From Chrysochromulina tobinii (Eukaryota), in the NCBI GenBank assembly GCA_001275005.1, contig JWZX01003036.1:1-38576 (forward strand): a DNA stretch of 38,576 nucleotides, given 5' to 3'. The position numbers were made by a program, and so were the translations under genes. The notes below the pieces were generated by a model. That model saw only the letters and a list, made by a program, of their open reading frames with translations, had not been told where the DNA came from and made no database searches. Positions 1,109 to 34,345 of the stretch are shown piece after piece; the stretch's first letter is position 1, and each line of letters begins with the position of its first letter.

Positions 1109-2279
1109 ATGACGGCCAACGCCGCCGTGCCTCTGCTCGTCCTTTTTTACGACGACAGGTACAATGAAACGCGCGATCGGCACACGATGCCCGTGTACCG
1201 CAGCCTCGACCGCGAGAACATTCCATTCCTCGTTGGCAGTCCGGAGGGTACCATCAGCGTCGGCCGGCCTGGCGACGGGCCGGCCGATCGCAAGCTGTTG
1301 CACTATCGGCCTGGACACAAGATACGATGGCTTCTCCAGGTACTGCCCACGGTGCGTTCTGAGCTTGTGCTTCTGCTCGACACCGATATCCTCTGGCTGT
1401 GCAGTGCGGCCGAGGTGATCGAGAAGCGCGTGAAGATGCTCGCGCAAAGGGAGCTGGCGGCAGCACGCACCGTCATCCTCTTCGGAGAGAAGGGCATGTG
1501 GCCGCCGTACCAGGAGTTTCGCGGCGTGCAGCTCCGCTACAATGAGACGTCGGGCTACCCGCCCGCGACAACGCGTGAGCCCTTCCGTTTCGTGAACGCC
1601 GGCGCGGCGCTCGGGCGGCCTCGCGACGTGCTCGCCATGCTCGAATGCATGCAGGCACGGTACGAGGGCTTCCCGGACGCATGCCCCGCTGGCCATGGCC
1701 CGGACGGCGAGCTGCGATATTATTCGCCCAATCGATCCTACGTGCCACCGCCGTTAATGGTGCCGAGTCGGCTGACCAAGTATCATGGGATGCGGCTGCG
1801 CGGGAGCAACTGGGGGTGGGAGCAGGGATGCTTCCACATGTACTACCTCGAGCACGTCCATGCCGAGCTCACGGCTGCGTGCCCTCCGGTCGTGCTCGAC
1901 CGCGCGGCAAGGTGTGATGGCCTCCCTGATAGCCTCCCTGATGACCTCCCTGATGGCCTCACTGATGGCCTCCTGATGATCGCCTGTGCTCGACCGCGCG
2001 GCAAGATGGCTCGTTCACCTGGCAGGTGTGGACGGTACCTCGCTGGCGCTCTCGCGCGCCGACGCCGAGCACGGGCGCCGTGGTGGGCGCCCGCGCGCGC
2101 TGCTCCTGTCGACGGGCGAGCGCCCGTGCGCGCTGCACGCCAACGGCCCTTCCAAGGCCTCGCTCAAGCCGTTGGCCGAGTGGTGGAATGGCAGTGGCGG
2201 TGTAATCCGAAAGTTCTGGCCATCTGCTGGCCGGGGACCCGTACTTTTGAAGCTCCGAGAAAGAGCGCGACGAGTATAA
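1109..2279 (+). CDS. PLOD-type (procollagen lysyl hydroxylase GT-domain-like) glycosyltransferase; exons 1109-1911 and 2006-2279
   Basis: Motifs HKIRWL, LLLDTDIL (DxD), ILFGEKGMWP, FRFVNAG and EQGCF. Removing GT-AG intron 1912-2005 joins VLDRAAR to WLVHLAG...CALHANGPSK, restoring the HxNG motif typical of this family. Confidence 0.7.
1912..2005 (+). other. GT-AG intron (94 nt) ending in a 20-bp copy of the upstream exon end
   Basis: GTGCTCGACCGCGCGGCAAG occurs at 1892-1911 and 1986-2005. The interior is reiterated TGATGGCCTCCC-like units. Removal restores the frame. Confidence 0.85.
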
Positions 2280-2440
2280 TCTTCTGTGGTGTGAGTTCAA
2301 TTTTTGCTTGCTTGGGGTGGGCTCGTTTAGAGAACCGGCGGCGGCGTCTCGCGGACTATCGGTGTCATTTTACCGGTAGGAGGGGCGCGCGCCGTGACAT
2401 GCCGTGAAATGGCCGAAACTCGCCGACCTTCGCCGACTAC

Positions 2441-5293
2441 ATGGCGGCGCCCGTCCTGAAGCCCGGCGCCGCCACCGCCCGCGCAGGCTCGCTGATTTAC
2501 CGCGACATCCACGCGCCTCGCGACTTGCTTCCCGATCTCGCCGCCGCACTGGCCAGCCACGATCGGGAGCTCATCTTGCTCACGAGCAACGACGACCAGT
2601 ATGACCTCGCAGTCAACCTGATCGCCAACCTAGCCACGTTCGGGCTGCATAACCACGTCTTGCTGACGGACAATGCGGTGCTCTCGGTGCACGCGAGTCG
2701 GCAGGGTGCCGTCGCAGCCGTGTGGAGCACGATGCTAGATAGCTACACGGAGCGACCGGCGGTCGGCCCTGACTGCCCTGCAGGCTGCCACGACCCGGAT
2801 CCGCGCACCTCCGGTCGCACACATACTCCGCTGCGATGCCGGCGCACCGCGCCCGATGCCGCATCAGCGGGCGCCGAGTCCTGCCCACCCTCGCCCGCAG
2901 CGTTTTACCGCGCGGACGCGGTGCGCCGGCTCTGGCTGATGCGCTATCACTACGCAGCGCGGCTCGTGGGCTTGCGGTACCGCGTGCTCGTGCTTGACTC
3001 GGACTCGATCGTGTTGACGAACCCGTACCCTCTGCTGCGTGCGCTCGCACACGAGGTCCGCCCCCTCGGACTCGCGGTCGGCGTGGAGGACGTAGGCGCC
3101 TGGCCCGACATGTCGATCAACGGAGGCACCTGGTATCTGAGCGCGCGGCCGGGTGGGCCGGTGCAGGACTTGTTTGCATCGGTGATGGAGCACGCGCGGC
3201 GCGTGCTCGACGCCTACCCAGCACGGCGCATTTTGGACACGAGCCCCAAGGTGCGGCGGGGCAAGGCGGCCGATTTTTTGCTCTTCGACCAGACCTTAGT
3301 CAACGTCGCCCTGCTCTCGCGATGTCTCGGGCGCCCTGTCAACCTCACCTCCTCCGAGTCCGTTCGAATGGCGACCGGGGCTGATGAGCGGCAGCGCGTT
3401 CAGTGGAAGCGCGCATGCTGCTACGCCGCACCTTCAGAGCTCGGTCACCCGCCGTGGCGCGCTGGCGACGAGGCACAGCAAAAGGGCACCGGCTTGTTGT
3501 TGTGCGGCGGCGGCGGCGGCGGCGGCAGAGGCGGCGCGAGCGGCGTCCGCGGCATGCCGGTGCACTTGCAAGGCTTCAATCCGCGGCACATTTCGGCGCT
3601 GCTCGGCGGCGGCGGCACCTCTGCCGGCTGCGATCCGAGCAGCGTGCCGTATGGTACTGCCTATGAGCTTCGGTACCACCTCCTCCGCAACCACAGCCCC
3701 GAGGAGTCGAGATCGTACCTCCCCGAGATTGCATCTCTCTCTGAGCTTGCATCTCGGGAGATTGCATCTCTCTCCGAGCTTGCATCGCGCCCGCCCACCC
3801 AACGGCCGTCGGTACCGGTACCAGTACGTGCACCCCTTGCCGGAGTTTGCGGCGAGCGTTGTGTGCCACGGGACGTCTGCGCCAGGCTGTGTGCGCGCCG
3901 GGCGGGCGCCGTCACGGTCGCAGCCGCCCAGGTGTGTGCGCGCGACAGGTCGTGTGCAAATTGGAGCCGCTTCAGCGACGAAGGTCAAGAGGCGGTGCTC
4001 AAATCGCCACCTTGGCTCTTTGCTTCGGAGAGCGATCGCGACGGCAAGAGTGGGCGTGCGCATGCCACCTTCTGGGGCGCGCGCCCACCGCCCGCCGCCA
4101 TCATTCACTTCGTCTGCTCCAGCTGGCCGGGCTCTGACGGGCGGCGCGCGGCGATGCGCCTGTGGGGGCACTGGCATGCTGCGGACGTGTATGCGGAGGC
4201 GCCCGAGAGGGGACGTGCCCTCATCGAGTTTCGTCAACGCGGGTTCGTCAGCTTCGACGCCCCGGTGGACGCGGCTCGACCGGCGGCGCTCATGCCGTAC
4301 CTGAGGCTGCTCACTCTGGTGGCGCACGCCACAGGTCGAACGCCGAGCCTACCGGTCGTGCGCTGCGACGCCGAAGGGCAGGCGTGGGTGGAGGAACGCA
4401 TCGATGCGCGCACCGGCTGGCCTACGAGCCAACGCGACGGCAAAGGCAAGGGCAGCAAAGGCAAAGGCGGCGGAGGCGGCGGTGTCAGCGGCATGGATGA
4501 TCGATCGGGCCGCGGGCGCCCCTGTGGCTGGGCGTTCCACCACATCGCTGAGCGCTCGAGCACTGTGGAACTAGAGGAGCCCCTCTGCGTGCAGCGCCCA
4601 TTGGAAGGGTGCTTCCTCGCCTTTGCGACCCCGGATGAGCTCGCACCGCACGTGCCGCTCGGATTTTGGCGACGCTTCGCCGCGCGTGGCCGCACACCAG
4701 CCAGCACACCAGCCAGCACACCAGCCAGCACACCAGCCAGCACACCAGCCAGCACACCAGCCAGCACACCAGCCAGCACACCAGCCAGCGCACAGCCGGG
4801 AGCAGTCACGGAGACAGTCCTGTCCGCCGCCACCGCCGAGGTCGAGGCGCGTCAGCACGCCACCCCCACCGTCGAGGCGGACGCACATGAGTTTCGTCGA
4901 GTTTCGTCGAGTTTCGCCAAAGGCCCACCCACCGTCGAGGCGGACGCACCGCCGCTCCTCAGCCTCTTCGACGGCGCCAACGGTCGCAACCTGACTCTTG
5001 ACGATCTCTCGCGACGCACGCGCCCATACGTGCTGCCCACGACGACGCTTCCCACGACGTTTCCCACGAGCGCAGGCGCGACCGCAGCGCGCGTGCCGCT
5101 GCTTCTGATTGGGACGCCCAGTGCGGCGCTTCTGGCTCAGCAACCGCTGCTCGAGAAAGAAAGAGTAGGCGAGGCGCTGCGCACGATCAACCGGGGCTCT
5201 CTCGTGCCCACCAACGGCCCCGCGCGCTGGGGAGCGACTTGGATGCAGTGCATGCGCATGGTGCTGAACAACAAGTGCGCCGCCGTCTGTTAG
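2441..5293 (+). CDS. Nucleotide-diphospho-sugar transferase-like (GT77-like) glycosyltransferase; may contain in-frame introns
   Basis: 950-aa ORF with LAVNLIANL, LWLMRYHYAARLVGLRYRVLVLDSDSIVLTNPY (DxD), INGGTWY, FDQTLVN and IIHF motifs. Confidence 0.65.
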   Translation: MAAPVLKPGAATARAGSLIYRDIHAPRDLLPDLAAALASHDRELILLTSNDDQYDLAVNLIANLATFGLHNHVLLTDNAVLSVHASRQGAVAAVWSTMLDSYTERPAVGPDCPAGCHDPDPRTSGRTHTPLRCRRTAPDAASAGAESCPPSPAAFYRADAVRRLWLMRYHYAARLVGLRYRVLVLDSDSIVLTNPYPLLRALAHEVRPLGLAVGVEDVGAWPDMSINGGTWYLSARPGGPVQDLFASVMEHARRVLDAYPARRILDTSPKVRRGKAADFLLFDQTLVNVALLSRCLGRPVNLTSSESVRMATGADERQRVQWKRACCYAAPSELGHPPWRAGDEAQQKGTGLLLCGGGGGGGRGGASGVRGMPVHLQGFNPRHISALLGGGGTSAGCDPSSVPYGTAYELRYHLLRNHSPEESRSYLPEIASLSELASREIASLSELASRPPTQRPSVPVPVRAPLAGVCGERCVPRDVCARLCARRAGAVTVAAAQVCARDRSCANWSRFSDEGQEAVLKSPPWLFASESDRDGKSGRAHATFWGARPPPAAIIHFVCSSWPGSDGRRAAMRLWGHWHAADVYAEAPERGRALIEFRQRGFVSFDAPVDAARPAALMPYLRLLTLVAHATGRTPSLPVVRCDAEGQAWVEERIDARTGWPTSQRDGKGKGSKGKGGGGGGVSGMDDRSGRGRPCGWAFHHIAERSSTVELEEPLCVQRPLEGCFLAFATPDELAPHVPLGFWRRFAARGRTPASTPASTPASTPASTPASTPASTPASTPASAQPGAVTETVLSAATAEVEARQHATPTVEADAHEFRRVSSSFAKGPPTVEADAPPLLSLFDGANGRNLTLDDLSRRTRPYVLPTTTLPTTFPTSAGATAARVPLLLIGTPSAALLAQQPLLEKERVGEALRTINRGSLVPTNGPARWGATWMQCMRMVLNNKCAAVC
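4694..4789 (+). repeat. 12-bp tandem repeat ACACCAGCCAGC x8, encoding (TPAS)n
   Basis: Perfect tandem array visible in the sequence. Confidence 0.95.
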
Positions 5294-5506
5294 GTTTGAA
5301 AACGGGATATTTCACTCACAGCATCATCTGTGAACGCGTAGTCGTGGTTTTCTTGGACCGGACGCGACAGACGTGTCAAGCAAAGAACGTAATCACGACA
5401 CATGCGACGCTGTGGGGGCGACGAACGAGTGTGAAAAAGCGTGTGTGAAACTGGAAAACAACGGTCGGACCCGCGCTTCGCGGCAGGTGCGCTGCGCTTC
5501 GTGTGG

Positions 5507-7804
5507 ATGCCAGCCTGGACTGGAGGGGAGACCCGAGACAAATCAGCCGAGGAGGCGATCGACTTCTCGGGGACAGAGCGCGCCTTCCTGTGCGAGCCGC
5601 TAGCCGAGGAGGCCTGCCGCAAGGCGGGCGTGCTGCTCGAGGAACTGCGCCCGCGCTCGTATGCCTCGTTCTCCGTCAAGGGCCAGGATGAGTGGCTGCA
5701 GCAGAAGCGGAGTGACGCGTACGAACAGAGGCGGCAGTTCAAGTGGCGACTCGTGCGTGAGCAGCACGCTCGCCTTGAGGCGGAGGACGCCAAGCGTCGG
5801 ACCCTGAAGGCCATCGAGGCCAGTGCCGGCGCTGCGGCTGGAGGTGCGAGCGTGGCGCAGCGGCAGCACGAGGCGGCGCTGAAGATCGTGGTGGAGCGGC
5901 AGACGCGCCTTCTCGAGAATGAGCTGCGTTCCGAGGCGCAGCGCCAGCGCATCGAGCGCAAGCAGGAGGCGGCGGCACAGGCGCGCGCCGAGTCGGCGAA
6001 CGAGCGCTCACGGGCAATCGAGGCGGCGAGGAGCAGCCGAGAGCTCATGTACGAGGTGCGCGGCGCGCGGCGCGAACTTGAGGATCGGCTCGGGCAGCCG
6101 ACGCCGCGCCCGGCGCGCCCGGCCTCAGCGCCGCACGCGCGGCCATCGAGCGGCGGCATCGGCTGCGGCGGCGGCGGCAGCGGCAGCGCGCGGAGCGCGA
6201 CGGGCGAGGCGGTCCGGCAGCGTGAGGAGGCGCAGCGCAAGCAGCAGCGCGCCATGGTGGAGGCGAAGATGGCGGCCAAGGAGGCGAGCACGGCGCGCCG
6301 ACGGGAGGCCGTTGCGACTGAGCGTGAGGTGCGCCGCCTCTACGCGGAGCAGATGAGGTTACGTCATGAAGAGCGCAAGGCGGCTTGCGAGCTGCAGGTG
6401 ATGCAATCGAAGATGCGCACGATGCGCGAGCTGCTCGACAAGCAGGAGAAGGCGCAGCATGAGCGTGATCGGCGCAACGCGGCCATCAAGAACGGCGAGG
6501 GGATCCTAGGGTCCTTGGTACGCAGTGCATCCGACGGCGCCCTCGGCGGCGGCTACGGGGGCCGTAGTGGCTACGGCGACGGCGGCTACGGCAGCGACGG
6601 CGGCGCGGGTGCCGGCGGCGAGGAGAATGCTCAGAACTCGCGCCAGGCGCGGGAGGAGAAGCGTAAGAATGTGGCCGCACGCCTGCAGCAAGCGCACGAG
6701 CGCCTGGCACACAAGCAGAAGCAGCAGCAAGAGGAGTTTGCTCTCAAGGAGAAGAAGGCCGACATGGCGCGTGCGCTCGCGGCGCAGGCGGCCGAGGCGG
6801 CGCGGCAGCAGGCGGCCGCCAGGCAGTTCGAGCACGAGCAGCGGAGCCAAGCGGCCGCCCTCGCCGCCGACCTCGCCCTCGAAGCGAAGCGCGCCAAGGT
6901 GCAGAGTGCCGCGGAACTGCAGGCGAGGCGTACGGAGGATTCGAAGAAACGGGTCGACGAGGAGCGAAGGCGCAAGCGGATCGAGGCGGAGGTGAGGGAG
7001 GAGGCGCAGCGCGAGAATGCCGAGCGCGTGCGCCGCGCTGAGCAGTACCGGATCAAGGAGACTGAGCGTTCGATTGAAGACAAGGACAGGCGTTACGACG
7101 AGAAGCGTCAGAATGCGGAGCAGCAGCAGAAGATGCGGCTCGCGTACCAGATCGCACGGGCGAAACAGGAGGAGGCCCTGCAGGCGAAGCTCAATGCGCG
7201 CGCGCACCAGGAGCTGCAGAGTTTAGGCAGCGCGCGTGCGACGCCCGCCGCGCTTGCGACGGCGCTCGAGGCGTACGAGCCTGTGAGGCACGAGCCGCCG
7301 CCGCCGCGAATGCGCCCGCGAGGACGCGAGGGCAGGCGCGACGCTGGCGGCGGCGGCGGCGAGGGCGACGGGGCTGGAGGGGGCGAGGCGGCGGTGCTCG
7401 AGACGGCGCGCGATGGGCGGCGGAGGCGCCGCGAGGCCAGCTCGGAGGCGGCAGAGCCGGCGCTCGCGACGGCGCCCCACGGCGACACGCGTGCTGACAG
7501 CGCCGCCGCGACGGCCGACGGCGGGTACGGGCGCAGCACGCAGCAGTTGAAGGCCTATGCCGCCATCGAGAGGCTGCGCGCTCGCCAGAACGCCGAGCTG
7601 CGCGCGGCCGTTGAGGCTGAGCAGCTCAAGGAGGCTGAGCGCGCACGCATCCTCGAGGCCACAGCCGACGGCGCCGACAAGACGCGCTTGCTCAAGCTGC
7701 TCAAGCTCGAGCGCGAGCGAGCCGACTCGGAGCTCATGGCGCTCACCGCCGAGCACGAGCTGGCCCTCGCGGAGCAATTCGCGAAGCTCGGGGTCACGCG
7801 CTGA
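5507..7804 (+). CDS. Long charged coiled-coil protein; N-terminus weakly resembles CCDC177-like proteins
   Basis: Uninterrupted E/R/K/Q/A-rich ORF with N-terminal EEACRKAGVLLEELRPRS motif. First in-frame ATG is 5507; the true start is uncertain. Confidence 0.7.
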   Translation: MPAWTGGETRDKSAEEAIDFSGTERAFLCEPLAEEACRKAGVLLEELRPRSYASFSVKGQDEWLQQKRSDAYEQRRQFKWRLVREQHARLEAEDAKRRTLKAIEASAGAAAGGASVAQRQHEAALKIVVERQTRLLENELRSEAQRQRIERKQEAAAQARAESANERSRAIEAARSSRELMYEVRGARRELEDRLGQPTPRPARPASAPHARPSSGGIGCGGGGSGSARSATGEAVRQREEAQRKQQRAMVEAKMAAKEASTARRREAVATEREVRRLYAEQMRLRHEERKAACELQVMQSKMRTMRELLDKQEKAQHERDRRNAAIKNGEGILGSLVRSASDGALGGGYGGRSGYGDGGYGSDGGAGAGGEENAQNSRQAREEKRKNVAARLQQAHERLAHKQKQQQEEFALKEKKADMARALAAQAAEAARQQAAARQFEHEQRSQAAALAADLALEAKRAKVQSAAELQARRTEDSKKRVDEERRRKRIEAEVREEAQRENAERVRRAEQYRIKETERSIEDKDRRYDEKRQNAEQQQKMRLAYQIARAKQEEALQAKLNARAHQELQSLGSARATPAALATALEAYEPVRHEPPPPRMRPRGREGRRDAGGGGGEGDGAGGGEAAVLETARDGRRRRREASSEAAEPALATAPHGDTRADSAAATADGGYGRSTQQLKAYAAIERLRARQNAELRAAVEAEQLKEAERARILEATADGADKTRLLKLLKLERERADSELMALTAEHELALAEQFAKLGVTR

Positions 7805-8772
7805 GGGGCAGCCCTCGGGAGTGAGGGGAGACATAAATATGTCACCGTCTCGCGGACGAATCTGGGATCCAGATCCTCAGGTGGGAGGGCGCTCAGGTAA
7901 CGCCTCGCCACGACATTAAGGTAGTCCGCTTATGTTGTACATGGGGCGAAACCTGTGATCTCCAAAAAAACTGTCTGACACTTAAGGGGATTATGGAAGA
8001 AACCGCTCGAGCAAGAGGGAAGAGGTGTTCCGCCCGTGTGGTGCTCCCGCGTTCTTGGCAATGGCATTCGACATTGATGATGTGATGCGTCGATCATGAT
8101 TGAAAAAGTCAAAGTGGTCTTCCGAGTTCGTCCGTGTACAATTGTACCGTGATTCTTCGGAGTGACGGTGCTGAGTTGTGCGTGAGTGAGTGCGGGACTA
8201 TAGCCTCCTCCTGGGGCTACTTGTAGTCTGTTCACATGAACGACGCCGCGGTTTGGCAAGTCGCGTGGAGGAAAAGCGCCCCGCGAGTCGTCCTCTTCGC
8301 TCTTCGTGCTCCGTCGCTCTTCGTGCTCAACGTGCGTCGGTGCGATCGCTGCACGTGCGCACTGTGCCGCCTTCGCACGCGGAATCGATCGAGTCCGCTC
8401 AGGTGCTTTCCTCTATGGTGCCCCGCGGGCAATCCTGCATCTCCGGAGGGAGCACATATCGCGTCTCCCCAGGCGCCGCCTCCTTCCTCTCCACTCCCGC
8501 GCGCTTCACTGCCATGTGACTGCCCAATCCTGAGACCCCGAGCTGGGCTGCTTCTCTCGAGGGCATGCGACTTTCCGTTCGCGATGAGCTTCGGAGCCAC
8601 ATACGCGCACGCGAGTCCCCTCATCCTTGCGGCACGCTGTTGGCTGCTGCATATCTGCGCCGAGACACGTCAAGCGCCCTTCAAGCTTGCAGCCGCTTGT
8701 GTGCCCATATCTCTATGCTGCCGAATCTCGCATGCAGCCTAATCCTCTCTATACTTCTCTCTTGTTCGCAGG

Positions 8773-9838: not shown

Positions 9839-10637
9839 GGTGAGGCGGGATGTCGGTAACCGTGCCGTGCATTGTTTGTTTTAGCTCAAAACTGTCAGAA
9901 TCGAACGTGGAAATCCCATTCTGCATACTCTAGTTCACAAACCAGCCCATAACCAGCCCAAAACTTACAATTTTACTAGACAAAAGTCAAAACCCTCTAA
10001 TTTCGCACAGAAAGCACGCACGACGCGTGCGGGATTGGGGATATTTGTCCCATGATTTGTCCACTTCTTTGTGGTAAAGGCTGCGAAACTGCGTTCGGTA
10101 AATTCGGTCAGCGTTCACTGTCGGTGCAGCGTGGAGATAGATCCAGAATTCATATGGATGGGTAGGGCCAAGAAGAAAAAGACCTTCCTAATTTGTGATG
10201 AAAGGCTGCTGCAAAATGAAAGGCGGCAACTCTGCAACTCTGTCATCATCTACTTCAGAAGCCAGCATCGTACGCCACCCGCACGTTTTTTGCAGTGGGG
10301 AAATCGTCTCTCGCGATGGGACCACACTGGTTCCTGGCGTCTCGCCTGGGTCCTCGGCTGCCCCTGGTCTCGGCGTCTGTCGTCGCGATGCCTGACGACG
10401 ACCAGCTTTCAGATCTAGCCAGCGTGCAGATCCGCTCGCATCCACATCTCGCGCAGATCCGCTCGCGCAGTCACCATGGCCACCGTGCGGCCACCGTAAC
10501 CTGAATCACTCCAGGCGGCTGCCAAGCTGCCGTGCGCCACGACACCGTCGTCTCTCGACGCCGCCGTCGTCACGCGACGGCGGCATCGAGTGACTTCTTT
10601 TGCGTTCCCTTCGGGGGGCGCGCCAACGGGCGCGTCT

Positions 10638-10812
10638 CTACACCTCCGACTCCCACTGCGACGACCCCGGCGCCCGTGCGCAGACTGCATCTACGGCACC
10701 GACTGCGCCGACTGCGGCCCGCGCTTTCCGCCTCCTCCGCCCATCTGCGCCGAGACGTGCAACTGGGCTTCCGACGCCGATTGCGACGGCGGCGGCCCCG
10801 GCTCGGAGTTCC
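10638..10812 (+). pseudogene. Degenerate fragment of a Cys-rich extracellular repeat (CDDGGPGSE...C.YGTDCADCGPR type)
   Basis: YTSDSHCDDPG in one frame, then CADCIYGTDCADCGPRFPPPPPICAETCNWASDADCDGGGPGSEF in another. No complete ORF surrounds it. Confidence 0.5.
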
Positions 10813-12865: not shown

Positions 12866-14598
12866 ATGAAAGATCTAAGGACTCACCTCTTCCTCGCCGT
12901 CCTCGTCCTGGCCTCCACGCCCGTGTCCGGCGTCTTGCCGAGGCCGCAGCAGCAAACAGACTCGGGAGATGTGTTCTCACTCGGCGAAGAGTTTCAGTTT
13001 CTCGCCGTTGGTGTGCATTCGACGCCCATGCTTCAGAATGCATTCGATCGCTATCGCGCCATCATCTTCCAGCGGCGCAAGCCGGACGGTGCTGCGCCTG
13101 CACTGAGCACAATAACAGGCTGCGACGTGAACGTGACGTCGGATGTGCAAGTCAAGACGCTCACGACGGATGAGTCGTACGAGCTGCATGTCCGAGCGCC
13201 TCGCCTGTTCGTGCGCGCTGCGACCGTCTTCGGAGCCTTGTACGCACTCGAGACGTTCAGTCAGCTCGTTCGCTCCGATTTGTCCATCGATGGCACCGTG
13301 ATCACCGACAAGCCGCGCTTTGCCTACCGTGGCACCATGATCGATACGTCCCGGCACTTTTATCCGGTCACGTCTATCAAGATGCACATCGACGCGATGG
13401 CGTACGCAAAGATGAACGTGCTCCACTGGCACATCGTGGACGAAATCAGTTTCCCGTACGAGTCCGTCGTGCTGCCACAAATGAGTCTCGACGGCGCCTT
13501 CAGCCCCAAGCACGTCTACTCGATCGCGGCCATTCGGGAGATCGTCGAGTACGCGATGCTGCGCGGCGTGAGGGTGATTCCGGAGTTTGACACGCCCGGT
13601 CACGTGAGCCGAGGCTGGGGCTCTCTCGGCGTGCTCACCCAATGCTACGACGTCAAGACGGGCGCGCCGACCAACTTCGGAGCCCTCAACCCGACGTTGA
13701 ACCAAACCTACGCGGTGCTCAGCACCCTCCTCGCCGAGGTCAGGGACGTGTTTGCACCCGAGGCGTACATCCACGTGGGCGGCGATGAGGTTCCTAAGGA
13801 GTGCTGGCAGTCCAACCCGCAAATTGCGTCCTGGCTGCATGAGCACCCGAGTGTGAAGGACTTTGCCGGGCTCGAAACCTACTTTGAGCAGCGGCTGCTC
13901 GCACTGCTCAAAGCGCAGGGCTCGTCGTACATCGTCTGGCAGGAGATCTTCGACAACGGTGTTGAGATCTTGCCAGATACCGTGATCGAGGTGTGGAAGG
14001 GGAGCCCAGGATTGTCTGTGATCACCTCTCATGGCCTCTGATCTCATCTGATTGCCTCGCTCATCAGGTGTGGAAGGGAGGCCACGGAGGCGACCAATGG
14101 CTCTGGCAGACCGAGATGGCGAAGGTGACTGGCGCTGGCTTCAAGAGCGTGCTGTCCGCGCCGTACTACCTCAACTACATCGCCTATGGGGCCGATTGGA
14201 TCAATTACTACTCGATCGAGCCGGCTAACTTTACGGGCGGCGCCGCCGCCGAGTCCAACGGCCTCATCGCCGGGCTTGAGGCCTGCTTCTGGTCAGAGTA
14301 CATTGATGCCACCAACCTCGCTTCTCGCGCATGGCCGCGGGCGGCGGCCGTCGCTGAACGGGCGTGGTCGGCTGAAACCGTGACGAACCTGACGGATGCG
14401 GAACGTCGGCTGCACGAGTGGCGATGCATGCTACTGACTCGTGGCATCAATGCGGAGCCGATCGGCACCTGCTCGGTGAACGCTCAACGCGTTGGCGGGC
14501 CGACGTTGCAGCAGTGGTGCCAATACCAAGTGCCTGGGTACGGTGGCTACTGCGCGGAAGAATGGGATCCCGTGTACAGCGCGCCGTGGGACCGATAA
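12866..14598 (+). CDS. Secreted beta-hexosaminidase (GH20); exons 12866-13990 and 14068-14598
   Basis: Signal peptide. Motifs DKPRFAYRGTMIDTSRHF, KMNVLHWHIVD, RVIPEFDTPGH, catalytic HVGGDEV, EACFWSEYID and WPRAAAVAERAWS. The intron restores the frame. Confidence 0.93.
13991..14067 (+). other. GT-AG intron (77 nt) bracketed by 13-bp direct repeat AGGTGTGGAAGGG
   Basis: Repeat at 13989-14001 and 14066-14078. The 3' end is CTGATTGCCTCGCTCATCAG. Removal gives VIE|VWKGG. Confidence 0.9.
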
Positions 14599-15255: not shown

Positions 15256-18200
15256 TCAAGAGAGCACAAGGTCGGCCATCTGCAGCCCGACATGCATGTC
15301 CTCCTCCTCCTCGTCGTCGTCCTCGTCCTCGGTGCTCGATGTGTCGCCCTCCTCCTCCTCCGCCAACGCCGGCCGGGCGCCATGATGGGCGCTCGACATG
15401 GCGCTCGGGTCCCCTCGAGTGCGTGCGCCCACGACGGCCACCCGCACTGCGGGGTCTGCTCGAATCAGCGCGCCCAACGGCTGCGCCCCGTCGGGGCTGC
15501 CCGCGCTGTGTTGAGCACCAACAACCGCCGGGCCGCCGTCGCCGCCGCCGCCGCCAAGAACTCCAGCGCCCCCATCGTACAGGAGCGTCGCGTCCTCAGC
15601 ATGTCTCTCAGTACCTGTAGGCCTCGAGCTGCCGGGCTCGGGCCGCGGGCGCGGCGGCGTGAACGGCCGTTTCGGGTCGAGGACCCAATTGTGCTCGGCG
15701 GCGGCGGCACGCCCCCGTGCACGCAGAACCTGTGGGCAAGTGGATGGGGCGTCGTGGTGAGCACTAGTGAGCACTTGCATGCACGAGGGGGAGAGCGGCA
15801 CGCCCGCGTGCATGCAGAACCTTGGGGAAGACGTGGAGCTCGCGGCTCATGACGACCATCGCCGCGTCGTTCTTGTGATGGCCGCCGTAATCGGGCGCCG
15901 AGAAGACGGTTAGAATGCGCCCGCCTGCACACCTGCCATCACCAAGGGAAGCAGGCGAGATCACGGCGAGATCACGAAGGTCGTTTGGCGCACTCAGTCG
16001 CACTCAGTCGCACTCAGTCGCAATCAGTCGCAATCAGTCGCACTCAGTCGCACTCAGTCGCACTCAGTCGCACTCAGTCGCACTCAGTCGCACGCGCACC
16101 ACTCGAAGCCGTCCTGGACGCACTGGTGGGCGCGCAGGATGAGCTTGAGCCCATTAGCCGCGCAAAAGGCGCGTACGCGGTCGGGCGCGAAGGCGACCGT
16201 ATTGGGACCTGTGGGGAGAGGGTGCAGGGCGCGGTGAGGAGCACTTGCATGCAAGCGTAGGGTCTCGAGCGCGTTCGACTCGATCGTATTGGGACCCCGC
16301 GAATTCGGATGGCAGCCGACAAGACCGTCTGAGTCTGTTGGATCGGACCAAAGGATCTGATATGGGAAGCACTCAGTGACCAGTCAGTACTGATGAGGAA
16401 ATCACTCAGTGGCCAGTAAGTACTGGGCGATAACTGCTGGCAAGTTGTGCACCATCAGAGGGGCAATCAGTGACTCACCTCGTTGAGCACGTTCCGTTGC
16501 GACAAGTTCACACTCACGGGGCGCGGCAGCTCGCGGAGCTGATCGAGGTTCTGAAGCGACTCGCCTATGCCCCCATGCACAGCAAGCACCACATCGTCAA
16601 TGAGCGCCGCCACGGGCATCATCTCGAACACCTGGTTGATGGCAGTCCACACGTGCGCGCCGTCGCGGCAGCGGCGCATACACTCCTGGCGGAAACCGTA
16701 GTGAGCGTTCACTTGCGGGTCCTCGTGGTTGCCTCGCAGCAACGTGACCCTCGACGGATGGCAGATCTTGAGTGCAAGTAGCAACGCCACCACCTCCAGC
16801 GAGTGCTTGCCACGGTCGACATAGTCACCGAGGAACAGATACGAGCAGTAGTCCACGTCGCCCGTGTATGCATTCGGCGAGCCAAACGCGGCAAAGAATC
16901 GCTGCAAATCTCCAAACTGGCCGTGCAAGTCTCCAAAGATCTTGAGCGGGGCTTTGAGCGGCACGAGCGATGAAGTCGTCCACATGCGTCGCTCGAGGCA
17001 GAGCTTGCACATGATGAGCAGCTCGGCATCTGTGCACACGTACTCGAGTGAGCCTTCGCCCATTCCGCAGCGCTCGAGCGCCGCCGCGTCCCACCCGCCG
17101 AGCAGCAGTGTGTCACACACGCGCTTGGCCACGTCCTTCCCAGGGGCGGGAGAGGGCGGCGCCAACCACGATCTCGCATGCATCTCGACCTGCCGCTTTT
17201 GGATCGCCGCGTCCGTCGGATCGATGTCGACAGAGGTCTGCCGTTGCAGCCCAGTCGGAGCCGCCGCCCTGCCCAGGAGACCTTTGGGGCTAGCCGACGA
17301 GAGAGACCGGTAGGTCATCGGCGCCTCGAGGACGACCTTCTTAAAGGCAAAGCGCACCTCACCGCCCGGCGACGGCGGCGGCTCGCCACCGCCGCGCCGC
17401 CGCCTCGCGCTCAGCAAAGGGCCCTGCGCACCCTCCACAGCGCCGCCCACGACAGCGCCGCCCACGACAGCGCCGCCCACGACAACGCCGCCCACGACAG
17501 CGCCACCCACGACAGCGCACGTGGATGCATGCATGCTCGGGCCGAGGTTGAGCGCCGTACCGGGCAGCGGCGGGTTCATGCCGCCGGCATGTGGCGGCGA
17601 GTCAGGCGCACTCACCTGATGAGGGAAGCAATCATTTTGATGAGGGAGGCAATCAGGGCGGCAATCAGCATGTGGCGGCGAGTCAGGCGCACTCACCTGA
17701 TGAGGGAAGCAATCATTTTGATGAGGGAGGCAATCAGGGCGGCAATCAGCATGTGGCGGCGAGTCAGGCGCACTCACCTGATGAGGGAAGCAATCAGTCT
17801 GATGAGGGAGGCAATCAGGGCGGCAATCAGCATGTGGCGGCGAGTCAGGCGCACTCACCTGATGAGGGAGGCAAGCAGCCTGATGAGGGAGGCAATCAAG
17901 TCGGCAATCAGCATGTGGCGCACTCACCGATAGAGACGGCCTCGAGGCACGTGAGGAAGCACGCACGGGGGTGCCCTTGCCCAAGGCCGACGTAGCCGTA
18001 TCGGAAGCGTCCTCCGCCGACGCCGCCGTCACTGCCACCGCTGTCGCTGTCGCTGTCGGAGCCTGCTGTGAAGCCTGCTGTGAAGCATGCTCACGTTCCC
18101 GATAGGGCGAGGCGGTGCGTGAGCTGTCCGGGCATGAGGCCTTCGGCTTCATCAGCCGGGTAGGGGGCGAGAGCGGCGAGCGGCTGGCGCTCCCTGGGCC

Positions 18201-25948: not shown

Positions 25949-27976
25949 ATGGTTTTCACCAACGCATTTTTGGTGACTATATTTGCCTTACCGCGTCACA
26001 GGAGTGTAAACTCCCTCGACATGGCTGACGACAAATTTCCTGTCAAGACGATCGTTTTGATGGCGCTCGAGCACGCAGTGGTGGAGACTGAGGCCAAGTC
26101 CCCGCCGCTTCGCCGTCACCCGCCAATGCTGCCGGAGAAGGAGCGCCGACGCGTGCATCGCCTCCTTGAGCGCGGAGTTCACGGAGTCGGTGCGGAGCTG
26201 AGTCCTCATGATCCTGTCCGCTTCAGCGACGAGCCGAATCATACCTTGCACGCCGATCAAGTTGCCGCGATCAGGAATCTCCTGGACAGTGCAGGTGACA
26301 TGCCGCCTGAGGTGCCTCAGCCTATTGGATATGAGATTAGGCGTCCCAATTCAACGAATTCAACTCCCGACACCGCACCGTGCATACCGGGGGAAGACAT
26401 CGCGGGCGTACCGTGTGCCCTATGGGCCACTCAGGGCGAGTGCGAACATATTCCTGTGTTTATGCGCTCAAACTGCGCAGCGTCGTGCCCCTGCCCAACG
26501 TCAACCTCTGTTCCCGGCTCCAGCCAGCTCTCAAACAAGGTGCCAATATGCAAGCCGTGGTGCCCGGCGCACACAGCCCGATTGGATGTCAAGTGCGCCT
26601 TTCCACAGTGCAGCACGTGTGCAGAGTGCGACGCGCTCAACCTCAACGCACCGGCCGCGGTCGACGGGCCCACCAAATTGACCTCGCCGGACTCGATAGG
26701 CGGCAGTTGCAAGCCGTGGTGCCCGGCGCACACAGCCCGAATCGAGGTCAAGTGCGCCTTTCCCGGGTGCAGCACGTGTGCAGGGTGCGACGCGCCCAAC
26801 CTCAACGCACCGATCGCGGACCATGAGCCGAAGCAAGTGAAGGACGATGAGCCCATCTCGACAGACGGTTGCATGGCGTGGTGCGCGGAGCACACAGCAG
26901 CATTGGAGACCAAATGCACCTTTGGACCGTGTAATCAGTGTGCCGGATGCGAGTCGCTCAGCGCGCTCGTCACAGCGCCGACCACGCCGACCTCGATAGA
27001 CGGGTGCATGGCGTGGTGTCCCGCGCACACGGCGGCCCTGGAGGTCAAGTGCACCTATGTCCCGTGCATGCAATGCGCAGTGTGCGAGTCGCTCGACATA
27101 CCGTCCACGGCCGATGCGCCGACCTCGATCTCGCCAATCTCGTCGACGTCGCCGACCTGGCGGAACATGATGGACGGATGCATGCCGTGGTGCACCTTTG
27201 AGGGCATGTGCAACTTCGCCGCATGCATGCAATGCGAAGCATGCGGCGGGCCGGCGCTCAGCCTCGACGCACCGACCGCGGACGAGGAGCCGACCTCGGG
27301 AGACAGTGCACCAGTCGAGCAGGATGCCGCCAAACTGGACCCAATGCTCCTCCCGACATTGCACAAGATCTTAGATCCTGGCACGACCTTGCACGAGACA
27401 TTAGGCGGGTGCGATCCCGCGTGGTGCTTCCCAGACGTTCAGTGGGGCAAGTGCACCATTCCGCAGTGCAAGCGATGCGCAGAATGCGAGCTGCCGCCCG
27501 CGCCGCCTTCTCAAATTCCGAGGCCTTCCACACTGCCATCCACACTACCATCCCCAGTCTCGTCACCGGTTTCGTCACTTGGGTGCGCTCCGTGGTGCGT
27601 GGCGCACACAGCGGCAATGGAGGTCAAGTGCAATTTCATCCCGTGCAAGCAATGTGCCGGATGCGAGTCACTCTACACGCCGTCCAAAGCTGATGAGCTG
27701 GCCTCGTCCGACCTGCCGACTCACCGGCTCTTCATCCCGGGTCACTGGCCATCACCTGTGCGGAAGCGCTACTCGGCCCGTGACGACAAGCGCTCCCACC
27801 TTGCGTCCGACCTGACGTCCGTGAGCACCGATGTGGGCTCTCTGCCCTTCATTCTCGCCATGGCTTCCTTTGCTCTTTGCGCCATCGCCTTCCTTTGCCC
27901 GTACCTGTGGCTGTGCTGCTGCGCTTCGCTTCGCCTGCGAACGACGAAGCTATCAGAAAGAGAGGGCTACGGCTAA
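25949..27976 (+). CDS. Type I membrane Cys-repeat protein (ShK-like domain, seven 6-Cys repeats, C-terminal TM); paralogue of the 21253 gene
   Basis: Signal-like MVFTNAFLVTIFALP. Shares LPEKERRRVHxLLERG, the ShK-like domain and CKPWCPAHTAR repeats with the upstream gene. Hydrophobic LPFILAMASFALCAIAFLCPYLWL near the C-terminus. Confidence 0.8.
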   Translation: MVFTNAFLVTIFALPRHRSVNSLDMADDKFPVKTIVLMALEHAVVETEAKSPPLRRHPPMLPEKERRRVHRLLERGVHGVGAELSPHDPVRFSDEPNHTLHADQVAAIRNLLDSAGDMPPEVPQPIGYEIRRPNSTNSTPDTAPCIPGEDIAGVPCALWATQGECEHIPVFMRSNCAASCPCPTSTSVPGSSQLSNKVPICKPWCPAHTARLDVKCAFPQCSTCAECDALNLNAPAAVDGPTKLTSPDSIGGSCKPWCPAHTARIEVKCAFPGCSTCAGCDAPNLNAPIADHEPKQVKDDEPISTDGCMAWCAEHTAALETKCTFGPCNQCAGCESLSALVTAPTTPTSIDGCMAWCPAHTAALEVKCTYVPCMQCAVCESLDIPSTADAPTSISPISSTSPTWRNMMDGCMPWCTFEGMCNFAACMQCEACGGPALSLDAPTADEEPTSGDSAPVEQDAAKLDPMLLPTLHKILDPGTTLHETLGGCDPAWCFPDVQWGKCTIPQCKRCAECELPPAPPSQIPRPSTLPSTLPSPVSSPVSSLGCAPWCVAHTAAMEVKCNFIPCKQCAGCESLYTPSKADELASSDLPTHRLFIPGHWPSPVRKRYSARDDKRSHLASDLTSVSTDVGSLPFILAMASFALCAIAFLCPYLWLCCCASLRLRTTKLSEREGYG

Positions 27977-30176: not shown

Positions 30177-30698
30177 GGATCGAGAGATCGAGAAATAGAG
30201 AGATCGAGATCGAGAGAGATCGAGAGAGATCGAGAGAGATCGAGAGAGATCGAGAGAGAGGAGAGGGAAGGAGGAGGAGGAGAGGTAGAGAAGGAGGAGG
30301 AGGTGAAGAGGTGACGGAAGGAGGAGGATGAGAGGTGACGGAGGGAGGAGGAGGAGAGTCGACGGTTGGAGGAGGATGAGAGGTGACGGAAGGAGGAGGT
30401 GGAGAAGAGGTGACGGAAGGAGAGGAGGAGAGTCGACGGAAGGAGGAGGATGAGAGGTGACGGAAGGAGGAGGTGGAGAGGTGATGGAAGGAGGAGGAGG
30501 AGAGGCGACGGACGGAGGAGGAGGAGAGGTGACGGAAGGAGGAGGAGGAGAGGTGATGGAAGGAGGAGGAGGAGAGGTGACGGAAGGAGGAGGAGGATAG
30601 GTGACGGAAGGAGGAGGTGGAGAGGTGATGGAAGGAGGAGGAGGAGAGGCGACGGACGGAGGAGGAGGAGAGGTGACGGAAGGAGGAGGTGGAGAGGT
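30177..30698 (+). repeat. Purine-rich satellite block: (GAGAGAGATC)n followed by about 27-bp GGAGAGGTGACGGAAGGAGGAGGAGGA-type units
   Basis: Tandem arrays with extreme G/A strand bias, visible in the sequence. Confidence 0.9.
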
Positions 30699-32612
30699 TG
30701 CCGGAGTTTGGCGATGGGGAGAGCTGGGAAGACCGTGGGAGGCAATTTGGGCCCGGAGCCGAGCCAGAGAGGCTGACGACTCTCGAGAACAGCGGCTGAG
30801 ATGGAGAGTGAGAAGAGCGGTTGAACTCCGAACCGAGCCGGAGGGCTGACGGTTGCGAAGAGGAGGGCCGCGGGAGGAAACCCGGGCGAGGCAAGGTGGA
30901 GGGCCGCAGGAGCGGCGGACTCCGGATCGAGCCTGATGGAGCCGCGGGAAGCGGTTGAGCTCCAGACTGGGCCGGGAAGGCTGAAGGTGCAGGGGCAGCC
31001 CGAAAAGAAGATGAGAAAGAAGATAGAAGCTGCGGGCGGGAGCCCGAGCGGGTCAGGAAGGAGGGCCGCGGGAAGCGGCAGAACTCCGTTCAAGCCTGGA
31101 GGCGAACGTCGGAAGGAGAGAAGAATGAGAAACTCCACTCGAAGAGGGAGCGAAAAAGAAGATCTGCGGCAGGCTGAGACCTGGTCGCGGACGCGACGCC
31201 GGGTGGAGGAGGCGTCGGCGATGGGAGGGCATCTAGTAGATGCTGGCCGAGAGGGCCGAGTCCGTCCAGTGGCGGAGAGGGACAGCCATTCGTTCGAAAC
31301 GAAGTGGCTTGAGAGAGGGATGTGTGAACGCGCCTTGGTGGGCGCGCCTGTGTCTAGGGGTGTTCGACACCGGCGGGCGCCGTTGCGAATTGCATATAGT
31401 ATGCTTCGGGCCGTAAACCCCCCAAACACAGCTCCGCGAAGAACATACGAAGTCCGCTCCTGTTGTAATAGAATAAAGATGAAAGCAGTAGCGGATCTCA
31501 CAGGACTCACACTCTACAGCATGCTGCAACTTGCATGTGACCGACTACTGACCATCACAGCGGACGTCCGGCATGCAAGTAGCAAGAGACCATCATGCAA
31601 GCACATGGCCCAGGTTGTTAGCCCACCTTGCTATCCAACCATGATCAACCGCCGATGTCAGCTCCAGCGGCGAGATGGCTAGCCCGCATGGCTGCCCACA
31701 TGCATGCCCGCGCACGTGCACGCCCCCCCCCCCCATGCCCGCCCGCCAGTTCCCAGCCCCCAGAGCAGTCGCGACACGCGTGTGCGTCGCAGCCGCCACT
31801 ACCCAATCTCTCGGGTGCGCTCCCCAACGACCCCCCCCATGCGCCGTCCGCTGCCCGTGCCTCGTCTCGTCGCGAGCTGAGCGCACAACGATGGCATTCT
31901 TCGTCGTGCATGCCTCCACTGAAGGACGCCGCGTGCTGCTGAGCGGCAGAAAGACCTCAAGGACACGTGCCACGCCCATCCGCCGCCCGATCGCCGCGTC
32001 GAGGGATCGAGGCCACACCCGTCGTAGTCTCTCACTCGACGGGTATGGCGCCAACACCCCTCGTGGTCGATCGAGCTGCGCCCCCCTGCCCCACCGACAG
32101 GACTCCCCCCAACCTGCGAAAATGCTCCGAAAAATGCTCCGAATGCGCCCCACCGACAGGACTCCACCCCCTCCCTGCGAAATGCTCCGAATGCTGCTGC
32201 CTGCCTCGTACGAGTAGAAACCAAGAGGTGCCCCACAGGCACCGCTGGACTGCTGGAAGAAAGATCCTACCCACCGTAGTCGTCTGCCCACCATTCGCCG
32301 CCGCCCTCGCGGTGCCCATGTGACTGGTAACGTCGTCGCGGCTGGCTCGCCGCCTAATGGCGTGACCGTAGAACCTCTCATCATCCCGGCTAATGAAGAA
32401 GCCACTCCCGGCTAATGAAGAAAGAAGGAGCGAGGAGGCAGAAAGCCGTCCACCCTCGCTCCTGCCCGCCCTCTGCTCTCTGACCGCAGCACGTCGTCGT
32501 CCCCCGGCCCAAGCCAACGCCTCATCGATGCGCTCAACATGACGCCTCATCGATGCGCTCAACATGACGCCTCCTCTCGGCACTGGCTTGCCCCGGGCGC
32601 GAGCGCGCGCGC

Positions 32613-34276
32613 TTACGCGTTGAAGAGCTCAATATACCGAGTGCCCATGTGCTTGTTGTTCATAATGGTCGCGCGCTGCGCCTCGGCCGGCGACGTAAAG
32701 GTGACGAAGCAGTCGCCCGACGCGCGCCCGTCGCGCTGGCCGATGACTACGCCGCCAGGGACGACCTGGAAACCAGCAAAGAAGCGCATCACGTCCTCGA
32801 CCGTTGAGCGGAAGGGGATGCCGCGCATTCGGAGGGTCGAGCCTTTCGGGGTCGGGCTGCCTGGCATGTGCGGGCCGCCCATGCCCATGCCCATGTGCTG
32901 CTGCATGCCCCCGTGCGCGCCGCCCATGGCGCCGTAGCCGTAGGCCGCCTGGCCATACGGAGACCCATGCATGCCGTATGCGCCCATGCCGTACGCGGCC
33001 TGCGCGCCCATGCCATTGGGCGCCATGACGGCCATGTTGGCCATGTAGCCGCCCACAAACTGCTCGAGCGCCGCGATGAGCTCGCCGCGCGAGACGCGGA
33101 AGAGCTCGACGTACCTGTGGGGACGCGGCGCCGTGGTGAGCACGTGCATGCAAGGCAGATCATCACGTGGCAATCCACGTGAAGCTCCGAGACGCGGAAG
33201 AGTTCGACGTACCTGCCGCCGATGTGCTGCCGATCCTTGCTCATGGCGCGCTCGCGGTCGTCGGCCGACGAGAACTCGACGTAGGCCTCTCCCGTGGGCT
33301 GCTCGCGCTCGTTGAAGATGAGGTGCACGCCGTTGAGAGGCACTGAGAATCCCGAGAAAAAGTCGAGGATGTCGTTGCGGGTCACCTTGTACGGCAGCCC
33401 GCGCATCTTGACGACCGAATCAGAGCCGGGCATGCCGCCCATGTAGCCCATCTGAGGCATGCCGTAGGGCGCGTAGCCATACGGGCCGCCCATGTGGGCG
33501 GCGGCGGCGTGCTGAGCCATCGCGCTTGGGTGCATCGAGTGCATGCCCGGCGCGAGGTTGTTCGACTTGCCAACGCGCTGCAGCGCCATCATCATCTGCT
33601 CAGGCGTCGCTCGGAAGACTTCGACGTAGCGCGTGCCGATGGTGGCCCGATCCTTGTTGAGCGCGGCGTCGGCGACCTCCTCGGAAGCGAACTCGACGAA
33701 AGCCTCTCCATTGGGCCGTCCATTGGGCCCGAGGATCAGGTGCACGCCGTGAAGACCCTTGGGCGCGTCGTAGCCCTGGAAGAAGGCGAGGATCATCTCA
33801 GCCGTCGTATTGAACGGCAGCCCGCGCAGCCGCACGATGCCATTCGAACCCAGATCCCCCATGCCCATGGCGCCCCACGCGCCGTGGCCGCCCGTTGGCG
33901 TGGCCGGCGCCACGTTGGCCTGGTTCATCTCGCCCTCGCTCGACAGGAAGACCTCGACATATCGCGTGCCCATGTGGCGGTGGTTGAGCGACTGCACGGC
34001 GCGCTCGGCCGCCATATCGGGCAGCTCGACGTACTGCGAGGTGAGAGAAACGAGGGTGAGAGCGGGTGAGAGCGGGTCGTTGGGATGCAAGGCGGGATGG
34101 GTTGGCAGTGGCGGCAGCAGCGGCAGCAGCGGCAGCGGCGGCGGCAGCAGCGGCAGCAGCGGCGCGCAGCGGCGCGCAGCGGCGCGCAGCAGCGCGCAGC
34201 AGCGCGCAGCAGCGAGCAGCAGCGAGCAATAGCTGCTGCTAGCAGGCATGGCAGCAGCTAGCGCCCATGGCTGCTA

Positions 34277-34345
<69 letters not shown>

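What the first reader, a model, noticed from the sequence alone, without database searches (positions are those of the whole stretch)
1892..33215. Recurrent introns built from a long exon duplication plus a stereotyped filler: candidate intron-writing insertion system
Seen: six introns in four unrelated genes contain a copy of adjacent exon sequence, with repeat lengths of 20 bp (1912-2005), 13 bp (13991-14067), 28 bp (15730-15820), 12+ bp (16209-16295), 29 bp (17616-17927) and 28 bp (33115-33212). In five the duplicated exon start provides the GT donor and the filler provides the AG. In one the duplicated exon end provides the AG and the filler provides the GT. Splicing therefore restores the original coding sequence exactly. 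Copies differ by only 0-2 bases, which implies recent origin. Established: described introner elements are mostly DNA-transposon-like, with short fixed-length TSDs and often TIRs, whereas long variable TSDs are typical of target-primed or staggered-break insertion. Inference: a repeated mechanism duplicates a proto-splice site and writes a short splice-signal-bearing filler between the copies. I see no TIRs and the fillers are not identical copies.
Basis: partly seen in the sequence, partly recalled or inferred. Interest (0 to 1): 0.9.

Follow-up and report, generated by a model that had tools for sequence, protein, structure and literature searches.

The report
Introns that copy themselves from neighbours
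In the alga Chrysochromulina tobinii many short introns consist of a copied piece of their own gene plus a piece of another intron, often a nearby one, which likely means that error-prone DNA repair keeps building new introns from existing ones, a route that would escape the usual searches for intron-making transposons.

Summary
All six introns carry the boundary repeats (s5: 29 bp inside an 81-bp array, 12 bp at the outer junction). RNA contigs show s2-s5 spliced exactly. The window is C. tobinii. The pattern is widespread in related DNA: 118 of 156 isolated filler cores sit between direct repeats (20 of 600 in controls; median 28 bp). Fillers are not one element but pieces of other introns. 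Four cases carry exon sequence of an identifiable donor intron, in the next gene, in inverted orientation or on another contig. Kin cluster locally (20 of 117 vs 2.5; 12 of 57 vs 2.0), junctions show microhomology, and non-intron and antisense copies exist. Best reading: microhomology-guided templated copying during DNA repair, with a 10-46-bp duplication, filtered by selection for spliceability (0.5). An RNA template is not excluded. No TIRs, no fixed TSD; a 2025 introner screen scored this genome 0. No empty allele was found; s2 was present in all conspecific genomic records that reach it, and one relative has an intron at s6. This scan noted the same footprint before in another piece of this genome.

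The parts
1892..1911 (+). s1 exon-1 end, original copy of the 20-bp repeat
1912..2005 (+). s1 intron (94 nt), L form: A-type filler 1912-1985 (12-bp units, gives GT) plus copy of exon-1 end 1986-2005 (gives AG); host gene has no Pfam match
   Evidence: indirect RNA support
12866..14598 (+). GH20 beta-hexosaminidase gene; spliced product equals KOO24932.1 of C. tobinii
13991..14067 (+). s2 intron (77 nt), R form: copy of exon-2 start (repeat 13989-14001 / 14066-14078) plus A-type filler ending CTCATCAG
15730..15820 (-). s3 intron (91 nt), R form: repeat 15795-15822 / 15704-15731, B-type filler ending CCCACAG; in a Ser/Thr-phosphatase-like gene
15933..16099 (-). control intron (167 nt, 10-bp array) without long boundary repeat
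16209..16295 (-). s4 intron (87 nt, in frame, partly retained in one run), R form: 12-bp repeat 16285-16296 / 16198-16209, 30 nt of unknown source, then B-type filler
16357..16478 (-). control intron (122 nt, A-like units) without long boundary repeat
17587..17927 (-). s5 intron 17616-17927 (312 nt): array of about four 81-bp units, each an exon-2-start copy plus A-type filler; spliced as one block
33115..33212 (-). s6 intron (98 nt), R form: repeat 33188-33215 / 33090-33117; filler is a nearly full-length B master lacking its own donor; hnRNP F/H-like gene
34034..34495 (-). control intron of the same gene, at a position shared with other haptophytes; no boundary repeat, no A/B filler

Best explanation
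These introns are mosaics of a duplicated piece of their own exon and a piece of another intron, and they likely arise when a broken or stalled DNA end in an exon primes by microhomology on an existing, often nearby, intron, copies 25-70 nt of it and returns to its own template 10-46 nt further back. Shown: the duplications, the shared filler, donor exon 'scars' in recipients, local clustering of kin, excess microhomology, and exact splicing of s2-s5. Inferred: the repair pathway (polymerase-theta-like end joining or template switching), a DNA rather than RNA template, and selection as the filter. In coding sequence only events that rebuild a whole intron would survive, in three forms. R: the copied piece brings branch point and AG, the duplicated exon start gives GT. 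L: the piece brings GT and branch point, the duplicated exon end gives AG. M: the piece brings only the branch point. Outside exons, doubly truncated or inverted pieces persist without forming introns. Once made, the flanking repeats would let the unit expand into arrays (s5) and copy itself into sites that share 9-14 nt with its repeat. Every new intron becomes a possible donor, so no autonomous element is needed.
For: Boundary repeats: 118 of 156 isolated B cores score 12 or more vs 20 of 600 mismatched pairs, 76 of 156 score 20 or more vs 1 of 600; A acceptors 37 of 86 vs 1 of 1,000. R repeats 10-46 bp, median 28, n=66; L 10-35 bp, n=12. Donor scars, each string found exactly twice in all loci: (1) L071 12534 carries exon-derived sequence of the intron 2.5 kb away in the preceding LRR gene, with 5-nt microhomology; (2) L060 carries 16 nt of L018 exon 1 and shares a 5' variant otherwise seen only, nearly, in L066; (3) L105 holds an inverted 35-nt copy, including donor exon-derived bases, about 0.5 kb from its donor and outside any splice register. 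A fourth case: L063 5502/5556 carries exon-1 sequence of L063 7448. Local kinship: B best hit on own contig 20 of 117 vs 2.5 (p 2e-4), 9 of 104 vs 2.1 without the two richest contigs (p 0.003); A 12 of 57 vs 2.0 (p 2e-4), from other contigs. Junction microhomology 1.72 vs 0.75 nt (46 testable of 99 sites after dropping one array artefact; p 8e-5). R targets resemble donors: G at -1 in 55 of 66 vs 104 of 388, G at +5 in 46 of 66 vs 133 of 388. Non-intron, in-frame and antisense insertions occur.
Against: No empty allele of any of these introns was seen in conspecific DNA; no whole genome or sister-strain DNA run was available. Kinship is significant for same-strand pairs (p 3e-6) but not opposite-strand pairs (p 0.82), and drops to p 0.08 without two contigs; a same-strand bias fits an RNA route. 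The L-form 5' 49 nt are a median 98% identical to their consensus across contigs (19 sites), which looks like one active source acting in trans. Intron-type fillers make up 163 of 264 repeat-spacer-repeat structures (loci were picked for a B core), more than blind repair would obviously give. All B counts are conditioned on my search motif, so fillers cut inside the core are unseen. One relative has an unrelated intron at the s6 position and another ORF ends there.
Confidence: 0.5

Rival explanations
1. RNA-templated insertion: a nicked DNA end primes reverse transcription on an excised intron or pre-mRNA (target-primed, as for non-LTR retroelements). The natural RNA ends give the exact AG of R forms and the exact GT of L forms; staggered nicks give the variable duplication.
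For: R forms end at the acceptor and L forms start at a fixed donor 30-31 nt before the core. Kin are mostly same-strand. 110 of 141 cores face the sense of the flanking coding frame. Variable TSDs with 5' microhomology are typical of non-LTR insertion (my own knowledge).
Against: Exact ends and sense bias also follow from selection. A donor in a different gene (L071), an inverted copy (L105), opposite-orientation pairs (L106) and doubly truncated pieces need extra steps. No A or T run of 5 in 78 fillers. No reverse transcriptase was looked for genome-wide (no genome held).
Confidence: 0.25
2. A dedicated non-autonomous introner (the roughly 54-nt L master) is mobilised by an unknown enzyme that makes long staggered cuts; R forms are its decayed or truncated descendants. 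This is closest to the first reader's 'system' and to note e1-2577349.
For: Near-identical L 5' halves on many contigs. A palindromic 8-mer in the core (sequence). High summed DNA depth over fillers (4,168-9,985 vs about 110-130, not a copy number). Introners with TSD and no TIR are reported in other Chrysochromulina MAGs.
Against: No TIR in 0 of 66 and 0 of 12 fillers, no stable fold. Neither end is constant across forms. Two different filler families (A, B) show the same behaviour. Host exon scars and local pedigrees show that many introns act as donors.
Confidence: 0.13
3. The intron positions are old; local duplication across the boundary, slippage and conversion between neighbouring introns later replaced one half of each intron with exon sequence and homogenised neighbours.
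For: Arrays of the unit exist and vary between assemblies (s5; L034 two units vs L075 one). s2 has two filler alleles and no empty allele. One relative has an intron at the s6 position (P0142). The genome is rich in short tandem repeats.
Against: Genomic-looking ORFs of relatives read through the s6 site (P0255 on a 47-kb contig, P0128, P0129, P0130, P0131, P0141) and the s2 site (P0003), while the conserved intron of the same gene has no repeat. Full-length introns without a repeat are a small minority (24 of 156 cores score under 10). Non-intron insertions of the same filler cannot be old introns.
Confidence: 0.12

Closest known systems
Introners with TSD-recruited splice sites (Chrysochromulina sp. 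MAG family 5, Symbiodinium, Polarella; PMC9860276 passages and supplement rows; bioRxiv 10.1101/2020.10.14.339549 parts 1-2 of 4)
   Same: Repeated intron sequence at unrelated sites; one splice site carried, the other taken from the duplication; mRNA restored; lengths about 70-90 nt; no TIR in the Chrysochromulina family.
   Different: Reported TSDs are short and fixed per family (3-9 bp; 4 bp in Chrysochromulina). Here they are 10-46 bp and variable, either end of the filler may be lost, donors are many and often local. C. tobinii scored 0 families in PMC12130899 file 7. MAG consensus sequences were not in the supplement held, so homology is untested.
Intron gain by staggered double-strand-break repair in Daphnia (PMC4202315, abstract and passages)
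   Same: Direct repeat of the adjacent exon end at the far end of a new intron, with inserted sequence between.
   Different: 33 such repeats of 4-12 bp; inserts AT-rich and of mostly unknown source. Here the repeats are 2-4 times longer and the insert is traceable to other introns.
Intron transposition and tandem genomic duplication (review PMC3443670, passages)
   Same: An intron sequence appears at a new position (14 cases listed, Mycosphaerella and Oikopleura); duplication of an AGGT-bearing exon piece yields both splice sites (the M form).
   Different: Transposition by reverse splicing is seamless and whole; tandem duplication has no foreign filler. Here partial copying and duplication occur in one structure.
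Polymerase-theta-mediated tandem duplications and templated insertions (PMC8355091, passages)
   Same: Small tandem duplications at breaks with overhangs, with junction microhomology when made by TMEJ.
   Different: Shown in mammalian cells at engineered breaks; not linked there to intron formation. The pathway in haptophytes is untested.
Direct repeats near intron borders in general (PMC11782384, abstract only)
   Same: Repeats of 4-30 bp near splice sites, read as insertion footprints.
   Different: A survey of 213 mixed introns; the abstract gives no donor-recipient tracing.

Membership tests
Introner (broad: intron sequence multiplied to new sites) | Similar intron sequence at non-homologous positions | tested here: met
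   273 B core sites and 86 A acceptors in about 640 kb; R core-to-AG median identity 83%; L 5' half 98%
Introner (broad) | Exact removal by splicing | tested here: met
Introner (broad) | End-to-end similarity of family members | tested here: not met
   10-46 nt of each intron is locus-specific exon copy
Introner (broad) | Presence/absence polymorphism or empty orthologous site | tested here: inconclusive
   no empty conspecific allele at s2 in 15 listed of 103 members; read-through in more distant genomic-looking ORFs, one intron at the s6 position
DNA-transposon (MITE-like) introner | Terminal inverted repeats | tested here: not met
   0 of 66 R and 0 of 12 L fillers with 6 nt or more
DNA-transposon (MITE-like) introner | Short fixed-length TSD | tested here: not met
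   continuous 10-46 bp
Fungal introner-like elements | No TSD, stable secondary structure | tested here: not met
   long repeats present; folding z about 0.1 (40 R) and 0.5 (12 L)
Non-LTR retroelement / SINE insertion | Variable TSD with truncated 5' end | tested here: met
   R form
Non-LTR retroelement / SINE insertion | Poly(A) or simple-repeat 3' tail and intact 3' end in all copies | tested here: not met
   no A/T run in 78 fillers; L and M forms lack the 3' end
Non-LTR retroelement / SINE insertion | Partner reverse transcriptase/endonuclease | not testable with these tools
   no genome held
DSB-repair / templated-insertion intron gain | Adjacent exon repeated across the insert | tested here: met
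DSB-repair / templated-insertion intron gain | Junction microhomology and nearby template | tested here: met
DSB-repair / templated-insertion intron gain | Dependence on POLQ or end-joining genes | not testable with these tools
   needs genetics

The most novel reading that the evidence does not exclude
C. tobinii runs a self-propagating, element-free intron factory: any intron can seed a new one nearby by partial copying during DNA repair, the host exon supplies the missing splice site, and each generation leaves an exon scar. Thousands of its introns would then form traceable pedigrees, and such gains would be invisible to introner screens in many other genomes.
Probability: 0.45. Interest if true: 0.9.

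Novelty: new variant of a known kind. Interest (0 to 1): 0.77.

Why it matters
The source of most newly gained introns is unknown, and introner catalogues rely on end-to-end similarity. Here donor and recipient introns can be named from exon scars, so the route, direction and distance of intron gain become measurable in one small haploid, cultured genome that a published screen scored as introner-free. It joins three mechanisms usually listed apart (break repair, tandem duplication, intron transposition) in one structure and gives a search signature to apply to other genomes.

Tried and rejected
No whole genome or record handles were held, so no genome-wide census was possible. Viral contigs gave one unrelated phage match for the B motif and none for A; prokaryote genomes gave none. 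A motif-free census of GT..AG segments with repeats was swamped by microsatellites and antisense hits and was not used for counts. The search for empty paralogous sites gave only internal domain repeats at 33-60% identity (PDZ, ankyrin, RRM), too old to date anything. Automatic gene chaining failed for L071 and was unreliable for L053; L071 was read by hand. One microhomology value of 20 came from the site's own array and was dropped. The 30 foreign nt of s4 and the starts of the s2 and s3 fillers had no convincing source in the loci held. The first read-laying at 85% likeness hid the joints among repeats. All DNA runs found held 95-96% of the words, so they were not used to look for empty sites. 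Rejected: assembly artefact (RNA joints, independent assemblies, conspecific proteins); chance; MITE-type element.
Full report
1. Observation. The six segments are GT..AG introns at the stated coordinates, with boundary repeats of 20, 13, 28 (2 mismatches), 12, 12/29 and 28 (1 mismatch) bp. s5 is an 81-bp array of 4.1 units; its 29-bp copies are internal. Random GT/AG pairs from the window reach 12 exact bases in 0 of 20,000 trials. RNA contigs skip s2, s3, s4 and s5 exactly, and also two introns without repeats (167 and 122 nt). One contig of run X15 retains most of the in-frame s4. s1 has indirect support from a relative's polyA contig. At least seven other window introns lack long repeats. 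The spliced GH20 protein equals KOO24932.1 of Chrysochromulina tobinii, whose longest contig has the window's length.

2. Breadth. After removing 11 duplicate loci there were 273 core sites, 156 of them isolated. 118 of 156 lie between direct repeats scoring 12 or more (20 of 600 mismatched pairs); 76 of 156 score 20 or more (1 of 600). Automatic classes were 62 R, 17 L, 10 M, 43 with a repeat but no splice register and 24 with a score under 10; curation gave 66 R and 12 L. R repeats are 10-46 bp (median 28), introns have a median of 80 nt, and copies differ at 83 of 1,891 positions (25 of 66 perfect). The A filler, not used for the scan, behaves alike: 37 of 86 acceptors have the exon-2 start copied upstream (1 of 1,000 in controls), and 75 of 86 are followed by GT or GC. 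The 5' half of the full B sequence is built from two A-type decamers, so A and B are related (sequence). All B counts are conditioned on the motif.

3. Source of the filler. Fillers carry sequence of earlier hosts. In L071 the intron at 12534 starts its filler with bases that are exon-derived in the intron 2.5 kb upstream, joined through 5 nt of microhomology; the donor lies in an LRR gene that ends before the recipient's gene begins. L060 carries 16 nt of L018's exon and shares its 5' variant. L105 has an inverted 35-nt copy, with donor exon-derived bases, about 0.5 kb from its donor and upstream of the likely ORF start. Each of these three strings occurs exactly twice in all loci. L063 5502/5556 carries exon-1 sequence of L063 7448. 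Four unrelated genes (L050, L067, L079, L125) share one GC-donor intron; in three the exon ends in the same 9-14 nt as the intron, so there the repeat is homology with the donor rather than a new duplication. Kin cluster locally: B 20 of 117 best hits on the own contig vs 2.5 (9 of 104 vs 2.1 without L071 and L063); A 12 of 57 vs 2.0, from five contigs that did not contribute to the B count. The excess is in same-strand pairs (p 3e-6; 0.08 without those two contigs) and not in 29 opposite-strand pairs (p 0.82). Microhomology at the duplication/filler junction averages 1.72 nt vs 0.75 for simulated blunt joins (46 of 99 sites testable after one array artefact was dropped; p 8e-5).

4. Filter. 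R targets look like donors before insertion: G at -1 in 55 of 66 and at +5 in 46 of 66, vs 104 and 133 of 388 background GT sites. By a codon score, 33 of 141 cores have non-coding-like flanks (7 of 89 coding controls, 31 of 32 intergenic controls, 422 of 1,229 random windows). Inspected cases include doubly truncated pieces at a stop codon, in frame within a low-complexity protein region, and antisense to the host gene. So insertion is not confined to events that make introns. Still, A/B fillers occupy 163 of 264 isolated repeat-spacer-repeat structures, and 100 of 128 whose period is not a multiple of 3 (loci chosen for a B core).

5. Age. No empty allele was found. Among 15 listed of 103 cluster members of the GH20 protein, 11 show the s2 intron, in two filler alleles; one is the spliced gene model and three start after the site. 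More distant ORFs that look genomic, because they break at other sites, read through s2 (P0003) and s6 (P0255, P0128, P0129, P0130, P0131, P0141). P0142 breaks exactly at s6 with unrelated sequence and P0126 ends there, so that position may be a parallel-gain site or old. The upstream intron of the same gene is shared with relatives and has no repeat. A 94-nt unit is present twice in L034 and once in L075, so arrays such as s5 still change.

6. Mechanism. Shown: duplication, copied filler, scars, local kinship, microhomology, splicing. Inferred: a DNA end switches by microhomology to an existing intron, copies part of it, and returns behind its exit point; selection keeps the events that rebuild GT, branch point and AG (0.5). 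Rivals are RNA-templated priming (0.25), a dedicated introner (0.13) and remodelling of old introns (0.12). The branch-point role of the CTCAC/CTGAT motifs is from my own knowledge and was not tested.

7. Known systems. Introner TSDs are 3-9 bp; the Chrysochromulina MAG example has 4 bp and no TIR (PMC9860276, passages; supplement rows). Polarella classes have fixed TSDs of 3-8 nt (bioRxiv 10.1101/2020.10.14.339549, parts 1-2 of 4). C. tobinii was among the genomes listed in 2022 and has 0 families in the 2025 table (PMC12130899 file 7; files 13-14 not searched; main-text passages). Daphnia new introns have exon repeats of 4-12 bp with mostly unknown inserts (PMC4202315, abstract and passages). 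PMC3443670 (passages) lists transposition, tandem duplication and break repair as separate routes. TMEJ duplications carry microhomology (PMC8355091, passages). PMC11782384 (abstract) reports repeats of 4-30 bp near intron borders generally. PMC8469720 (passages) describes seamless fungal copies without TSD. The genome paper mentions introns once (PMC4580454, passages). Ten searches found no description of this pattern in the open library; subscription papers and the MAG consensus sequences were not visible. No TIR, poly(A) or stable fold was found.

8. Earlier notes. e1-2577349 reported a 15-bp repeat-flanked intron in this genome and read it as a mobile family. I confirm the footprint on my own data and add the mirror forms, scars, local pedigrees and microhomology, which shift the reading from one element to intron-to-intron copying. 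e1-7377132 describes a similar duplication with another filler in another organism; I did not test it.

9. Verdict. Real, widespread in this species, and not matched by a described family in the papers I could search. It works like an introner and like break-repair intron gain, but fails membership of the transposon-type families. New variant of a known kind; interest 0.77.

Noticed in passing
window 16209-16295: s4 is in frame and stop-free; a contig of run X15 keeps it while the next intron is spliced.
   Followed up: partly
window 8760-9840: WD40-like repeat gene (family name from recall) with four similar 66-68-nt introns in 194-bp units and very high summed DNA depth, up to about 20,000: a high-copy family.
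   Followed up: no
window 10165-11386: High-copy region (summed DNA depth 9,000-24,000) with a short cysteine-rich repeat near 10640-10830.
   Followed up: no
window 21900-22700 and 26500-27700: Two related genes with a repeated cysteine-rich module of about 50 aa (families D4/D5/D10).
   Followed up: no
window 30182-30698: Purine-rich array of 24-bp units (18 copies) after a 10-bp array, in a region without a clear ORF.
   Followed up: partly
window 34034-34495: Conserved-position intron filled with GCT/GCA microsatellites.
   Followed up: partly
L071 13204-18200: SNF2-family gene with about ten A/B-type introns in 5 kb; four share one tail variant.
   Followed up: partly
L010 around 15171: A 63-nt core-plus-repeat insertion lies in frame in an apparent coding region, so filler may be translated.
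   Followed up: no
L073 around 1227: Antisense core at the very end of a gene whose C-terminus resembles family-A DNA polymerases (motif recalled, not tested); it supplies the stop codon.
   Followed up: partly
L050, L067, L079, L125: A GC-donor intron subfamily inserted at glutamate-glutamate-glutamine codons in unrelated genes.
   Followed up: partly
L034 1495-1682 vs L075: Two vs one copy of a 94-nt intron unit between assemblies that are 99% alike.
   Followed up: yes
window 3719-3786 and 15177-15208: A third kind of short repeat (CCGAGAT-type units) in coding and 3' regions; not spliced at 15177 in X14.
   Followed up: no
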